Made by a program: the position numbers and the translations under genes. Positions 8,927 to 12,332 of a stretch of DNA of 64,000 nt are shown here, in pieces (position 1 is the stretch's first letter; the number at the start of each line of letters is the position of its first letter). Below the pieces are notes generated by a model. It was not told the origin of the DNA. It saw nothing but the letters and a program-made list of their open reading frames with translations, and did no database searches. The stretch lies in the NCBI GenBank assembly GCA_035635475.1, contig DASQAZ010000113.1, positions 360 to 64,359 of the forward strand, read 5' to 3'. Source of the DNA: Bacteroidota bacterium. GTDB lineage: Bacteria > Bacteroidota > Ignavibacteria > UBA10030 > SZUA-254.

Positions 8927-9475
8927 TTAAAAGGAAAGTGAAGAGAGCAGCGTCTGCTGCGCGGTGAACATTCTGGTGATCTCGCCTGCCGATCCCGGAC
9001 TCTTCACCGGCACTGCATCGCACTCGTAGTACCTTCCCCGGGCTGTAAAGACGACGATGCGCATGAACCTCCCCCCGGTTGAGACTTCATAGCTGCAAAA
9101 CCTGGTTCCCTTCATCTCAAACGATTTGGGTGATGCCGAGACTTCAGCGCCTTCCGAACGGTGAAGGCCCGCGCTGATGTGAGCCAGCAGCTCGAGCCCC
9201 TCCTTCTCGACACGGGATGTGGAGAGGCGGTCGAGCGTCAGCTCCTTAATCCCGATTGAGGCGGAAAGGTCATCTTTGACCAGCCAGGCCACCACGGCGG
9301 GGATCAGCGTGTCCTCCGTCGAGGAAAACCAGCCCCTGGGAATTCTTCCTCTGAAGACACCGTCGCGTGAGCGGAACATTTGTTCCGTGAGGGGGTAATC
9401 GATCCCATAGGGAAGCGATGCGGCGCAGGATATGCATAACAGCGCGGCGAGAAGCGAAACAACGTATTGCTTCAC
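8927..9475 (-). CDS. hypothetical lipoprotein
   Basis: Lipobox-like N-terminus (LLAALLCISCAAS). Its start overlaps the upstream gene's stop by 4 nt. No family recognised. Confidence 0.5.
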   Translation of the reverse strand: MKQYVVSLLAALLCISCAASLPYGIDYPLTEQMFRSRDGVFRGRIPRGWFSSTEDTLIPAVVAWLVKDDLSASIGIKELTLDRLSTSRVEKEGLELLAHISAGLHRSEGAEVSASPKSFEMKGTRFCSYEVSTGGRFMRIVVFTARGRYYECDAVPVKSPGSAGEITRMFTAQQTLLSSLSF

Positions 9476-10590
9476 CGGCTCTCTGTGGTTCGGCGGAACT
9501 GTTCCGCCTCCAGCGTGAAGGTGAGCGAAATGCGGTGAGTGTCTCCGAGGTCCTGGCTTCGATCAAACCTGGCAAATGAATAATCGATGTCCAGCTTCGG
9601 GAGGTGGATGCCGGTTCCGATGTTCAACGACTTGATGTCGCTGTATCCGATGCGCAACGCTGCGAGGTTCTTGTACTCGAATTCCACTCCGCTGTGAAAA
9701 TCCATGCTCACCCGTCCGATATGGGCGTTTGAGGCGGACTTCCGCCCTTCGAACCGGAAGTCGATGTCAATCGCGGGAGCGACCTGGCCGCCGAACAGGT
9801 CGAACAGGTACGCGGTGCCCGCCTTGAGTGTGGGGGAGATGAGCTCATTCCTTCCGGTGTTCCATGCCACGAGGGTTGTGGTGATGTCCTGCGCATTGGC
9901 GCCGATTAATAGCCGGTCTGTGGGAGCGTACTGCATCCCGAGGTCGAATCCCACACCGGTGGCCGAGGCGGTCCCGAGCTCACGCCGTATAAATTTGACG
10001 TTCGCGCCGTATGAAAACTGATCGCCCGCCTTTTTTGCATACGAGAAATAGAACGCCCAGTCAGCGGCATTGAAATACGTAATCCTCGAGGGATCGATTC
10101 CGGCGAGCTTTTGGAGCTGGTCGGGGGGGACCGGATTGCCGTTCGCGTCGACACCGGCATTCTGAGTATTGGGAATGTCATCCACGCCGAGGCGAATCAA
10201 ACTGATTCCGAAACTTGTGCTCACCCCTGCCGGGAGCGCAAAGGCCGCATAGTCGTAGTTGACCAGCCCGCCGAACCGTTCATCGTGCATCAGCGTAACC
10301 TGTGGGTACATCATCCTCGATAATCCGGCCGGATTCCAGTACCCTGCGGTGACGTCGTTTGCGAGCGCCGAATACGCGCCGCCGAGGCCGAGCGCGCGCC
10401 CACCCACGCCGATCGCTATAAATTCACCTGCGTACTTTGCTACTGCGGCTCCCGCCCTGGCTGGAACCGGGGATCCGGCGAACAAGAATACAAGGGAGGG
10501 GACGGCAATCCATTTTATAAGAGAGACACCGATGCCGCAAACATCGCGCAGGGTCCGGCCGGCGGACGGTTCATTTGCCTTCCCGCTCAC
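9472..10590 (-). CDS. PorV/PorQ-family (FadL-like) outer-membrane beta-barrel protein
   Basis: Signal peptide, then AKYAGEFIAIGVGGRALGLGGAYSALANDVTAGYWNPAGL. This resembles the N-terminal signature of the porV gene in this window (FLLLAPNARADAMGEAGGALSDDAASAFWNPAGL). Confidence 0.6.
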   Translation of the reverse strand: MSGKANEPSAGRTLRDVCGIGVSLIKWIAVPSLVFLFAGSPVPARAGAAVAKYAGEFIAIGVGGRALGLGGAYSALANDVTAGYWNPAGLSRMMYPQVTLMHDERFGGLVNYDYAAFALPAGVSTSFGISLIRLGVDDIPNTQNAGVDANGNPVPPDQLQKLAGIDPSRITYFNAADWAFYFSYAKKAGDQFSYGANVKFIRRELGTASATGVGFDLGMQYAPTDRLLIGANAQDITTTLVAWNTGRNELISPTLKAGTAYLFDLFGGQVAPAIDIDFRFEGRKSASNAHIGRVSMDFHSGVEFEYKNLAALRIGYSDIKSLNIGTGIHLPKLDIDYSFARFDRSQDLGDTHRISLTFTLEAEQFRRTTESR

Positions 10591-12332
10591 TCAACCTCCT
10601 TCGCACCAAATTCACGAATAAGAGCCTGGATCACCGGATGGCGCCGGACGGCCGGATCGTGGCTCTCTTTCGGCGGGGGTTCGGACCGGGCGACGGATGA
10701 GGCAGTGCGGGCGGTCGCAAGGATCGTATCCAACCGGACCCTCGCACCGTAGATATTCTGCGCCAGCTCGGAAATGAATTCGCGGTTCCGCCTTAGCTGG
10801 TCGAGATGAAAATCATCGGGGCAAGAGATCCTGAGACTTCCCGTGCCGACGCCGACGAGGGCCGTTTCCCGGAGCATGGTACCGACCGCGATTCTTTTTT
10901 TACACGCTTCGTCGATCAGCATGGGCCATTTTGCCTGCGCCTCGTCGATAGAGATGCCGTCCGCGCGCGGGCTTTCGTTGGCGATGACCGCCGGCCCGGC
11001 CGCGGGCATCGCAGCGGAGAGTTCTGAAAAGTTTCGAATGGGGCGGGGCGAGCCGGCGGCAGGCTGCACCATTTGTTCGGGCCGCAATACCGGCTGCGAA
11101 GCTTTAACGCTGCCCCGGACGACCGGCTTTTGAGCGCCGGTTTCGGCGAACGGAATCGCCCGCCGCACGTTATCCTCCCCGGGCACCTTTTTTTTTAGCT
11201 CATCGAGCTGCTGGAGCAAGGCATCGATCTGAATGCTGCGGTCGAGCCGGATCATCTGCAACAGCCCGATTTCCAATTTCAGGCGTCCGCCGGCCGAGGA
11301 GTGGTCCCATCGGATTGCGGCGTCGGTCTCGGCGGCAATTTTTAAAAGGCGAATCAAATCGGACGCAGTGAACGCCTTCGGCGCCTCGAGGTAGCGTTTC
11401 TTGTAGACCTCGGAGGTTTCGATCAGTTCCGCCGATTCAGTCGTGCAAACGACAAGCATGCTTCGCAGGTGCTCCATGAGCCCGCCGAGAAATTCGCGCA
11501 GATCGTATCCCCGCGATGTGATTTCCCGTATTAGCGAAAGCCCCTCGCCCGCATTCTTATTTGCGATGATGTCCGTCGTGCGGAAAAAGATTTCCTCATC
11601 GACGACGTTCAGCATGCGCGCCATCTCCTGTGTGTCGATGTTCTTGCCGCAGAATGAAACGATCTGATCGAAGATGCTCTGTGCATCGCGCAGCGAACCG
11701 TCGCTCCGCTTCGCGATCACAAACAACGCATCATCCCCGATCGTGATCTGCTCTTCCGAGGCGATGAAACGCAGCCGGCCTATAATTTCCTCAATCGATA
11801 TGCGGCGAAAATCAAATCTCTGACAGCGGGAAAGGATCGTCGAAGGAACTTTATGGATTTCGGTGGTTGCGAAGATGAAGACGATGGAGGGGGGCGGTTC
11901 TTCGAGCGTCTTGAGCAGGGCGTTGAAGGCCTCCTTCGTGAGCATGTGGACTTCATCGATGATATACACTTTATAGCGGCCCTTGGCGGGGGCGTAGCGG
12001 ACCGCCTCGCGCAAGTTGCGGATTTCGTCCACCCCGCGGTTCGAGGCCCCGTCGATCTCGAAAACATTGAGGCTGCGCCCTTCGGTAATCTCCCGGCAGA
12101 GTTCGCATTCGTTGTCGGGGTTTACGTCGACCGGATGCAGGCAGTTGATCGCCTTGGCGAGGATTCTCGCCGTCGTCGTCTTGCCGACACCGCGCGGGCC
12201 GCTGAAAATGTACGCGTGCGACAACCGGTTCGTCGCAATTGCGTTGCGCAGGGTTGTCGCGACGTGCCCCTGGCCGACGATATCCTCGAAAAGCATCGGC
12301 CGCCATTTCCTCGCTGTTACGATGTAGGTCAT
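10587..12332 (-). CDS. dnaX: DNA polymerase III subunit gamma/tau
   Basis: N-terminus YIVTARKWRPMLFEDIVGQGHV, Walker A GPRGVGKTT, zinc module CLHPVDVNPDNECELC, DEVHML, SRCQRF. Confidence 0.93.
   Translation of the reverse strand: MTYIVTARKWRPMLFEDIVGQGHVATTLRNAIATNRLSHAYIFSGPRGVGKTTTARILAKAINCLHPVDVNPDNECELCREITEGRSLNVFEIDGASNRGVDEIRNLREAVRYAPAKGRYKVYIIDEVHMLTKEAFNALLKTLEEPPPSIVFIFATTEIHKVPSTILSRCQRFDFRRISIEEIIGRLRFIASEEQITIGDDALFVIAKRSDGSLRDAQSIFDQIVSFCGKNIDTQEMARMLNVVDEEIFFRTTDIIANKNAGEGLSLIREITSRGYDLREFLGGLMEHLRSMLVVCTTESAELIETSEVYKKRYLEAPKAFTASDLIRLLKIAAETDAAIRWDHSSAGGRLKLEIGLLQMIRLDRSIQIDALLQQLDELKKKVPGEDNVRRAIPFAETGAQKPVVRGSVKASQPVLRPEQMVQPAAGSPRPIRNFSELSAAMPAAGPAVIANESPRADGISIDEAQAKWPMLIDEACKKRIAVGTMLRETALVGVGTGSLRISCPDDFHLDQLRRNREFISELAQNIYGARVRLDTILATARTASSVARSEPPPKESHDPAVRRHPVIQALIREFGAKEVE
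11170..11196 (-). other. putative programmed -1 frameshift / transcriptional slippage site in dnaX (A9G run plus -1-frame stop)
   Basis: The minus strand reads CTA AAA AAA AAG GTG (codons 379-383). The heptamer A AAA AAG is the same as the E. coli dnaX shift site. The -1 frame reads GGT GCC CGG GGA GGA TAA and stops after 5 codons. Confidence 0.45.

What the first reader, a model, noticed from the sequence alone, without database searches (positions are those of the whole stretch)
11170..11196. dnaX carries an E. coli-type A AAA AAG slippery heptamer within an A9 run, with a -1-frame stop 5 codons downstream
At codons 380-382 (DELKKKVPG) the mRNA reads CTA AAA AAA AAG GTG. The heptamer is the one used for programmed -1 frameshifting in E. 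coli dnaX, and an A9 run is the transcriptional-slippage signal described for Thermus thermophilus dnaX. Here the -1 frame gives ...KKK-GARGG-stop (TAA at 11172-11170). The product would be ~387 aa and would end just after the conserved clamp-loader domains I-III, which is where gamma ends in E. coli. The +1 frame stays open for ~90 codons. I saw no convincing E. coli-like upstream SD or downstream stem-loop stimulator.
Basis: partly seen in the sequence, partly recalled or inferred. Interest (0 to 1): 0.6.

Follow-up and report, generated by a model that had tools for sequence, protein, structure and literature searches.

The report
Conserved slippery A9 run in dnaX
The DNA-replication gene dnaX of this uncultured Ignavibacteria bacterium carries a run of nine A's, kept by selection across its relatives, that most likely lets one gene make both a long (tau) and a short (gamma) clamp-loader protein; the trick is already known from Thermus, E. 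coli and Chlorobi, but I found no report of it for this group.

Summary
dnaX (12332-10587, minus strand, 581 aa) reads CTA AAA AAA AAG at codons 379-382, five codons after clamp-loader domain III. The -1 frame gives GARGG-TAA, so the short product would be 387 aa (43.6 kDa).

The run is under selection. Among 110 dnaX genes of the class, run length is bimodal (0-6 or 9-10). The Leu third-base A lies outside the heptamer, yet 18 of 21 run-bearing relatives keep it, against at most 19% at other conserved Leu columns. The -1 stop lies within 9 codons in 54 of 55 run-bearing genes, against 30% of run-less genes. Control A9 and KKK sites in other genes of this genome drift freely. Some relatives need the shift at the same run to make essential tau.

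Mechanism is inferred. I favour Thermus-type RNA-polymerase slippage: the full A9 is selected, no SD-like element or hairpin stimulator is conserved, and tRNA-Lys(CUU) is present clade-wide. E. coli-type -1 ribosomal frameshifting is not excluded. In this family the A_AAA_AAG heptamer is common and only the -1 frame is closed.

I rate this a new member of a known kind, of moderate interest.

The parts
10587..12332 (-). dnaX coding sequence; the zero frame gives full-length tau, 581 aa, 64.7 kDa
   Evidence: ORF list; Pfam DNA_pol3_delta2, DNAX_ATPase_lid, DNA_pol3_gamma3 and DnaX_C; masses
11208..12332 (-). Part encoding clamp-loader domains I-III (residues 1-375), shared by tau and the predicted gamma
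   Evidence: Pfam DNA_pol3_gamma3 matches residues 234-375 over profile positions 3-142 of 143
11188..11196 (-). A9 run (CTA AAA AAA AAG, codons 379-382): the slippery site and the unit under selection
   Evidence: A9 or A10 sits at the same site in 55 of 110 class relatives, with a bimodal length distribution. The Leu third-base A is kept in 18 of 21, and AAA AAA in 22 of 22.
11187..11193 (-). In-phase A_AAA_AAG heptamer (the E. coli dnaX-type -1 shift site) nested in the run
   Evidence: An in-phase heptamer is present in 12 of 18 run-bearing family members but only 8 of 37 outside the family.
11170..11187 (-). -1-frame tail GGT GCC CGG GGA GGA TAA (GARGG-stop), which ends the predicted 387-aa gamma
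   Evidence: The -1 stop is at the same codon in all five genus members. It changes from TAA to TAG in the 89% relative while the overlapping zero-frame codon changes from Asn to Ser.
10587..11186 (-). Tau-only C-terminal part (residues 383-581, including the DnaX_C domain), lost in the short product
   Evidence: Pfam DnaX_C at residues 460-556
11144..11165 (-). Local 9-bp hairpin about 22 nt downstream of the run; probably not a stimulator
   Evidence: Seen in the fold, but the flank is no more stable than shuffles (z -0.09 to -0.61). The hairpin is broken in 1-2 of 5 genus members, and the alignment fold gives -6.0 kcal/mol with a covariation term of +3.56.

Best explanation
The A9 run is a programmed recoding site that lets dnaX yield two proteins. 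Standard read-out gives tau (581 aa). A shift into the -1 frame at the run gives a 387-aa gamma-like protein that ends five residues after the run. This product keeps clamp-loader domains I-III and lacks the C-terminal part.

The most likely mechanism is Thermus-type transcriptional slippage. RNA polymerase stutters on the nine template T's and adds an extra A to part of the transcripts, and ordinary translation of those mRNAs stops at the nearby TAA.

Shown here: the site, its frames, and strong nucleotide-level selection on the run and on the -1 stop. Inferred: that a short protein is actually made, how much of it, and that the polymerase and not the ribosome does the slipping. A contribution from -1 ribosomal frameshifting at the nested A_AAA_AAG is possible.
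For: Position: the run lies five codons after the end of Pfam domain III. This is where gamma ends in the known systems, by own knowledge and PMC5009743.

Selection on the nucleotides:
- Run length across 110 dnaX genes of the class is bimodal: 50 genes at 0-6, one at 7, four at 8, 36 at 9 and 19 at 10.
- The Leu379 third base is A in 18 of 21 run-bearing relatives. These split 9 CTA to 9 TTA, so the first base drifted while the third was held. The 22 other conserved Leu columns of the same genes average 8% and reach at most 19%.
- Lys380 and Lys381 are AAA in 22 of 22, against 50-80% at other conserved Lys columns.

Selection on the -1 stop: the -1 tail has a median of 2 codons and is 9 or fewer in 54 of 55 run-bearing genes. 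In run-less genes the median is 21.5 and 30% are 9 or fewer (Mann-Whitney p = 1e-10). Within the genus the stop keeps its position while changing from TAA to TAG.

Controls: another A9 in this genome (HpnE-like gene) is absent even from the 87% congener. A conserved KKK motif in MurI shows free AAA/AAG drift, with runs of 2-10 and AAA AAA in 4 of 9.

The run is functionally slippery in the clade: in relatives L182, L178, L183 and L184 the zero frame stops 2-3 codons after an A10 at this site. The conserved tau C-terminus lies in the -1 frame there, so essential tau needs the shift.

For polymerase slippage over ribosomal frameshifting:
- The selected unit exceeds the heptamer.
- Run lengths sit at the roughly 9-nt threshold described for slippage (PMC1088944).
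- The codon after the run varies (AAG, AAT, AAC, AAA).
- No conserved SD-like element lies at -10 to -14 and no conserved structure flanks the run.
- The genome and at least 30 of 41 relatives carry tRNA-Lys(CUU) beside tRNA-Lys(UUU). This is the situation that PMC5009743 links to Thermus's use of slippage.
Against: There is no RNA or protein evidence.

In the window and its family the +1 frame is not closed. It runs 89 codons here, and the family median of 25.5 is indistinguishable from run-less genes (p = 0.46). Thermus has stops in both alternative frames, and so do most run-bearing genes outside this family (+1 median 3). Transcripts with two extra A's or one fewer would give a 471-472-aa protein with an Arg-rich junk tail.

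The family is also enriched for the in-phase A_AAA_AAG heptamer (12 of 18 against 8 of 37). Both facts fit a -1-specific event such as ribosomal frameshifting. The extra Leu A could equally create a second overlapping heptamer (A_AAA_AAA).

Other A9/T9 runs sit in ordinary genes of this genome, so slippage on A9 cannot be very costly here.

The statistics are not corrected for shared ancestry. Downstream GC differs between groups. All relatives are MAGs, where homopolymer lengths can be mis-assembled.
Confidence: 0.6

Rival explanations
1. E. coli-type programmed -1 ribosomal frameshifting. Ribosomes decoding AAA AAG slip back one base on A_AAA_AAG and terminate at the TAA five codons later, giving the same 387-aa product. 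The mRNA is uniform.
For: An in-phase A_AAA_AAG is present and is enriched in the window's family (12 of 18 against 8 of 37 elsewhere). In this family only the -1 frame is closed, while the +1 frame is at background length, as expected for a strictly -1 event. The heptamer alone gave about 14-16% frameshifting in E. coli cell-free systems without stimulators (bioRxiv 10.1101/2025.10.02.679949). The extra upstream A creates a second overlapping heptamer.
Against: No SD-like element lies at the E. coli spacing, and no conserved downstream stem-loop exists. tRNA-Lys(CUU), expected to hold AAG firmly, is present here and clade-wide (argument from PMC5009743). Five of 22 run-bearing relatives in the order sample end the run with AAT or AAC and two with AAA, which are much less shift-prone in E. 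coli (PMC5009743). The bimodal 9-10 length distribution and the conserved Leu third base are not required by a heptamer.
Confidence: 0.25
2. No recoding. The run merely encodes a conserved Leu-Lys-Lys-Lys linker motif, the nearby -1 stop is a coincidence, and only tau is made.
For: ELKKK is conserved as protein. Gamma is dispensable in some bacteria, and the run has been lost repeatedly, with at least 14 state changes on the tree. A9/T9 runs exist in ordinary genes of this genome.
Against: The synonymous positions are held far beyond the controls: the Leu third base at 86% against at most 19%, and AAA AAA in 22 of 22 against 4 of 9 in the MurI KKK control. The -1 stop is tightly linked to the presence of the run. 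Relatives place essential tau behind the same run in the -1 frame.
Confidence: 0.1
3. DNA-level variation or artefact. The run is a replication-slippage hot spot (phase variation between tau-on and tau-off alleles), or its length is an assembly error.
For: Homopolymers are hypermutable and are error-prone in some sequencing chemistries. Relatives show A8, A9 and A10.
Against: The same A9 and frame layout occurs in five genus members and in two independent assemblies of the 89% relative (JGI and Logan). dnaX is essential, so switching tau off would be lethal. No truncated close variant appears among the 120 best database homologues.
Confidence: 0.05

Closest known systems
Thermus thermophilus dnaX programmed transcriptional slippage (Larsen et al. 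2000, as described in PMC1088944 and PMC5009743)
   Same: Both have a single ORF for tau and an A9 run in the sense strand just after the clamp-loader core. Both have a short alternative-frame tail that ends gamma, two lysine tRNA species in the genome, and no need for ribosomal stimulators.
   Different: Thermus has nearby stops in both non-zero frames. Here, and in this family, only the -1 frame is closed (the +1 frame runs 89 codons). Slippage is demonstrated experimentally in Thermus and only inferred here. The phylum differs (Ignavibacteria, Bacteroidota).
Escherichia coli dnaX -1 programmed ribosomal frameshift cassette (A_AAA_AAG with an upstream SD-like element and a downstream stem-loop)
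   Same: Both have an identical in-phase heptamer, a -1 stop shortly after it, and a product that ends after domain III.
   Different: There is no SD-like element at -10 to -14 and no conserved stem-loop. tRNA-Lys(CUU) is present, whereas E. coli has a single tRNA-Lys. The -1 tail is five codons, not one. Selection extends to a ninth A outside the heptamer.
Two-ORF dnaX with A7-A10 runs in Chlorobi, Flavobacterium, Cytophaga, Capnocytophaga and Coraliomargarita (Antonov et al. 2013, PMC3711429, Fig. S3)
   Same: The site, the A-rich run and the wider bacterial group (FCB) are the same, and slippage is the presumed mechanism. Some class relatives of this genome (L182, L178, L183, L184) have exactly this layout.
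   Different: In those genes the zero frame gives gamma and tau needs the shift. In the window tau is in the zero frame and gamma needs the shift. Ignavibacteria were not in that survey.
Caulobacter crescentus DnaX, where gamma is made by proteolysis of tau (cited in PMC5009743 and bioRxiv 10.1101/2022.11.10.516041)
   Same: The end result is the same: a short and a long DnaX from one gene.
   Different: That mechanism is post-translational and needs no slippery sequence. It may be what the run-less relatives use, but this was not tested.

Membership tests
DnaX (DNA polymerase III tau/gamma clamp-loader subunit) | AAA+ clamp-loader module, ATPase lid and domain III, plus the tau C-terminal domain | tested here: met
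   Pfam PF13177 (E = 1.8e-45), PF22608, PF12169 (residues 234-375) and PF20964 (residues 460-556). The nearest homologues are annotated as DNA polymerase III subunit gamma/tau.
Thermus-type dnaX transcriptional slippage | Homopolymeric A run of about 9 in the sense strand just after the clamp-loader core, with tau in a single zero-frame ORF | tested here: met
   A9 at 11196-11188, five codons after domain III, with an uninterrupted 581-aa ORF.
Thermus-type dnaX transcriptional slippage | [quoted passage not shown] | tested here: not met
   The -1 stop comes after 5 codons, but the +1 frame is open for 89 codons. The family +1 median is 25.5, equal to background. Outside the family the feature is met, with a +1 median of 3.
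Thermus-type dnaX transcriptional slippage | mRNA population with variable numbers of A at the run | not testable with these tools
Thermus-type dnaX transcriptional slippage | Separate tRNA-Lys for AAG (an associated feature, not strictly defining) | tested here: met
   tRNA-Lys(CUU) and tRNA-Lys(UUU) are both present. The CUU gene, with its anticodon retained, was found in 30 relatives.
E. coli-type dnaX -1 ribosomal frameshift cassette | In-phase A_AAA_AAG with a -1 stop shortly after | tested here: met
   Heptamer at 11193-11187 in the correct phase, with TAA five codons on in the -1 frame.
E. coli-type dnaX -1 ribosomal frameshift cassette | Upstream SD-like stimulator about 10-14 nt before the shift site | tested here: not met
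   None is present in the window. Across 60 run-bearing genes, SD-like words cluster only at -5 to -9, where they come from Glu codons (GAG GAG).
E. coli-type dnaX -1 ribosomal frameshift cassette | Downstream stimulatory stem-loop about 6 nt after the shift site | tested here: not met
   The only hairpin starts about 22 nt downstream. Flank z-scores are -0.09 to -0.61. The hairpin is not conserved within the genus, and the covariation term is +3.56.
E. coli-type dnaX -1 ribosomal frameshift cassette | A sole tRNA-Lys(UUU) reading both AAA and AAG | tested here: not met
   tRNA-Lys(CUU) is also present.
Two-ORF dnaX (Antonov 2013) | The zero frame stops directly after the run, and the tau C-terminus lies in the -1 frame | tested here: not met
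   The window has one continuous ORF. The feature is met in relatives L182, L178, L183 and L184.

The most novel reading that the evidence does not exclude
The A-run at the tau/gamma boundary may be an ancient, highly efficient slippage site of the whole Ignavibacteria class, and perhaps of the Chlorobi-Bacteroidia radiation. Around it, lineages would repeatedly flip which product, tau or gamma, is the zero-frame one. On this reading the window's family is caught shifting from polymerase slippage to ribosomal -1 frameshifting, or is using both. It keeps the A9, has acquired the E. coli heptamer, and has relaxed the +1 stop. That would be a natural intermediate between the two textbook dnaX mechanisms.
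Probability: 0.15. Interest if true: 0.6.

Novelty: new member of a known kind. Interest (0 to 1): 0.35.

Why it matters
Making tau and gamma from one dnaX gene is a textbook case of recoding. It is known experimentally from only a few organisms and by three different mechanisms. This finding extends the Thermus-like single-ORF A9 layout to uncultured Ignavibacteria.

The class-wide comparison shows the site is old and under nucleotide-level selection. It has been lost repeatedly, and it interconverts with the "tau needs the shift" layout. That supports the view that a short DnaX is widely useful.

In practice, these genes are all annotated as plain single products, so the predicted 387-aa gamma is missing from protein databases. 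The contrast between families could help in studying how one recoding mechanism replaces another: some close both alternative frames, while others close only -1 and carry A_AAA_AAG.

Tried and rejected

2. Exact-sequence look-up of the predicted 387-aa gamma in public assemblies.

3. Scan of genome contigs with a DnaX alignment. The taxon label came instead from source names of the nearest homologues.

4. Upstream hairpin as a slippage stimulator. The AGCUC-GAU-GAGCU palindrome abuts the run in the window. It arises from Leu-Asp-Glu-Leu codons, is already broken in the 93% congener, and the upstream 40 nt folds worse than shuffles (z = +0.67). Rejected.

5. Downstream hairpin as a frameshift stimulator. 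It is too far away (about 22 nt), not exceptional, and not conserved. Rejected.

6. SD-like stimulator. There is no consistent placement. Rejected.

7. The base after the run as a predictor of +1-tail length. Not significant (p = 0.15).

8. Earlier scan notes on look-alike stretches. These held nothing relevant.

Full report
**Observation**

The minus-strand ORF 12332..10587 encodes a 581-aa DnaX. Pfam finds the clamp-loader AAA+ module, the ATPase lid, domain III (residues 234-375, essentially the whole profile) and the tau C-terminal domain (460-556).

Codons 379-382 read CTA AAA AAA AAG. The A9 run is at 11196-11188 and the in-phase A_AAA_AAG at 11193-11187. The -1 frame then reads GGT GCC CGG GGA GGA TAA, with the TAA at 11172-11170. 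The +1 frame stays open for 89 codons.

One extra A in the mRNA, or a -1 ribosomal shift, gives the same 387-aa, 43.6-kDa product ending KKKGARGG. Tau is 64.7 kDa.

**Is it more than chance?**

The genome (2.88 Mb, 56% GC, 170 contigs) has nine A/T runs of 9 or more, and none is longer. From 1,624 long ORFs, CTA plus TTA make up 4.7% of Leu codons and AAA 40% of Lys codons. Leu-Lys-Lys would therefore be written YTA AAA AAA less than 1% of the time.

**Taxon**

The nearest database homologues (93%, 89% and 73% identity, and so on) come from MAGs labelled Ignavibacteria, Ignavibacteriae or Ignavibacteriales bacterium. All are annotated as ordinary DNA polymerase III subunit gamma/tau. Earlier notes on this genome use the same label.

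**Conservation**

I collected dnaX from 40 relatives (genus, family, order) and then from a spread of about 30 families of the class, 110 genes in all. In each I located the end of domain III by alignment to the window's protein.

- Run length at this site is sharply bimodal: 50 genes have 0-6 A's, one has 7, four have 8, 36 have 9 and 19 have 10.
- All five members of the genus have A9 in the same phase and a -1 stop at exactly the sixth codon.
- In the 89% relative, seen in two independent assemblies, the stop has changed from TAA to TAG while the overlapping zero-frame codon went from Asn to Ser. The stop is therefore held in place through drift.
- Among single-ORF run-bearing genes, the -1 tail has a median of 2 codons and is 9 or fewer in 54 of 55. 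In run-less genes the median is 21.5 and 30% are 9 or fewer (Mann-Whitney p = 1e-10, not corrected for phylogeny).

**Selection acts on nucleotides, not only on the Lys motif**

In the 22 run-bearing genes of the order-level sample, Lys380 and Lys381 are AAA in 22 of 22. Other conserved Lys columns of the same genes show 50-80% AAA.

The third base of Leu379 lies outside the A_AAA_AAG heptamer, yet it is A in 18 of 21. These split 9 CTA to 9 TTA, so the first base has drifted while the third is held. The 22 other conserved Leu columns average 8% and reach at most 19%.

Two controls from the same genomes behave differently. An A9 encoded as CTA AAA AAA AAC in an HpnE-like gene is unique to this genome, and the 87% congener reads CTC CAT AAG AAC. 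A Thr-Lys-Lys-Lys-Arg motif in MurI is conserved as protein, but its codons drift. Its runs range from 2 to 10, and AAA AAA occurs in only 4 of 9 KKK-bearing genes.

**The run is functionally slippery in the clade**

In four relatives (L182 in family f15; L178, L183 and L184 in f23) the zero frame stops 2-3 codons after an A10 at this site, and the conserved tau C-terminus lies in the -1 frame. In L182 this is 215 codons ending LIEELGAKRIS, compared with the window's LIREFGAKEVE. In f23 the same C-terminal motif is in frame 0 in three species and in frame -1 in three others.

This is the two-ORF dnaX layout that Antonov et al. 2013 described for Chlorobi, Flavobacterium, Cytophaga, Capnocytophaga and Coraliomargarita (PMC3711429). 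Tau is essential, so the shift must be efficient there.

On a DnaX tree the presence of the run needs at least 14 changes on well-supported branches. Within the window's order, run-less lineages nest inside run-bearing clades, which indicates repeated loss.

**Mechanism**

Both candidate mechanisms give the same protein, so only indirect arguments are available.

For RNA-polymerase slippage (Thermus type):
- The selected unit is the full A9/A10 run, not the 7-nt heptamer. The length distribution sits at the roughly nine-nucleotide threshold reported for slippage-prone runs (PMC1088944).
- The codon ending the run varies (AAG 14, AAT 3, AAC 2, AAA 2, AGG 1). A_AAA_AAC and A_AAA_AAA are much less shift-prone than A_AAA_AAG on E. 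coli ribosomes (PMC5009743).
- No stimulator is conserved. The flanks fold no better than shuffles (z from +0.67 to -0.61). The genus-level consensus fold is weak, with an unfavourable covariation term. SD-like words have no consistent position at -10 to -14. An upstream palindrome abutting the run is already lost in the closest congener.
- The genome carries tRNA-Lys(CUU) as well as tRNA-Lys(UUU). The CUU gene, with its anticodon intact, is present in at least 30 of 41 relatives. PMC5009743 links exactly this situation to Thermus's use of polymerase slippage.

Against a pure Thermus model:
- In the window's family the +1 frame is not closed. Its median of 25.5 codons is indistinguishable from run-less genes (p = 0.46), and it runs 89 codons in the window.
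- Outside the family the +1 frame is closed (median 3, p = 2e-5).
- The family is enriched for the in-phase E. coli heptamer (12 of 18 against 8 of 37).
- Transcripts with two extra A's or one fewer would yield a 471-472-aa protein with an Arg-rich tail.

This pattern fits an event that is specifically -1. That could be a polymerase that mostly adds a single A, or a ribosomal contribution. GC content of the downstream region (0.55 in the family against 0.45 outside it) is a partial confound.

Several A9/T9 runs also sit in ordinary genes of this genome. Slippage on A9 cannot be ruinous here, and its efficiency may be moderate.

**What could not be done**

No ~387-aa close variant appears among the 120 best homologues, but only two homologues are closer than 75% identity.

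**Comparison with what is known, and novelty**

The kind of system is well known: E. coli (ribosomal), Thermus (transcriptional), Caulobacter (proteolytic) and the two-ORF A-run genes of Chlorobi and Bacteroidetes (PMC5009743, PMC3711429, PMC1088944). No paper in the searchable library mentions dnaX together with Ignavibacteria. Baranov et al. 2005 noted that truncating cases like dnaX are hard to call by comparative analysis.

Earlier notes of this scan show that conserved dnaX A-runs recur in many lineages. I therefore rate this as a new member of a known kind.

**Verdict**

The case for a selected recoding site is strong (about 0.85-0.9). The case for polymerase slippage as the main mechanism is moderate (about 0.6). 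Ribosomal frameshifting is the main rival (about 0.25).

Noticed in passing
Relatives L182 (G175, family f15); L178, L183, L184 (G130, G164, G156, family f23): These are two-ORF dnaX genes. The zero frame stops 2-3 codons after an A10 at the same site, and the tau C-terminus continues in the -1 frame. Sister species of f23 (L177, L180, L181) have the same C-terminal motif in frame 0. The layout has flipped within one family.
   Followed up: partly
Family f23 relatives (L177-L184): The part of DnaX after the run is only about 50-100 residues in this family, against about 200 in the window, and it showed no match to the window's C-terminal domain by tblastn. These 'tau' proteins may lack the usual C-terminal domain.
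   Followed up: no
Genome contigs C38:7156-7164, C23:9758-9766, C55:68833-68841, C34:40333-40341, C134:14636-14644, C15:20952-20960 (outside the window): Six other A9/T9 runs lie inside apparently ordinary genes: MurI-like, Nif3-like, HpnE/amine-oxidase-like, Lnt-like, acyl-CoA synthetase and a membrane protein. The two I tested (MurI, HpnE-like) are not conserved at nucleotide level, so they look like tolerated accidents.
   Followed up: partly
window 10895-10901 (minus strand, dnaX codon 478): A second, shorter A7 run (TGT AAA AAA AGA) lies inside the tau-specific part of dnaX. Its conservation was not examined.
   Followed up: no
window 10587-10590: The dnaX stop overlaps the GTG start of the next minus-strand ORF (372 aa, 10590..9472) by 4 nt, so translation of the downstream gene may be coupled to full-length tau only. 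Ribosomes ending at the gamma stop, 580 nt upstream, would not reach it. The overlap itself is already noted by another finding of this scan.
   Followed up: no
IS1 transposases classically use an A-rich -1 shift site, so this may be that element's own recoding site.
   Followed up: no
Genome contig C76:27903-27976 (outside the window): The tRNA-Lys(CUU) gene is 100% identical over 74 nt in 18 genomes spanning several families of the order.
   Followed up: partly
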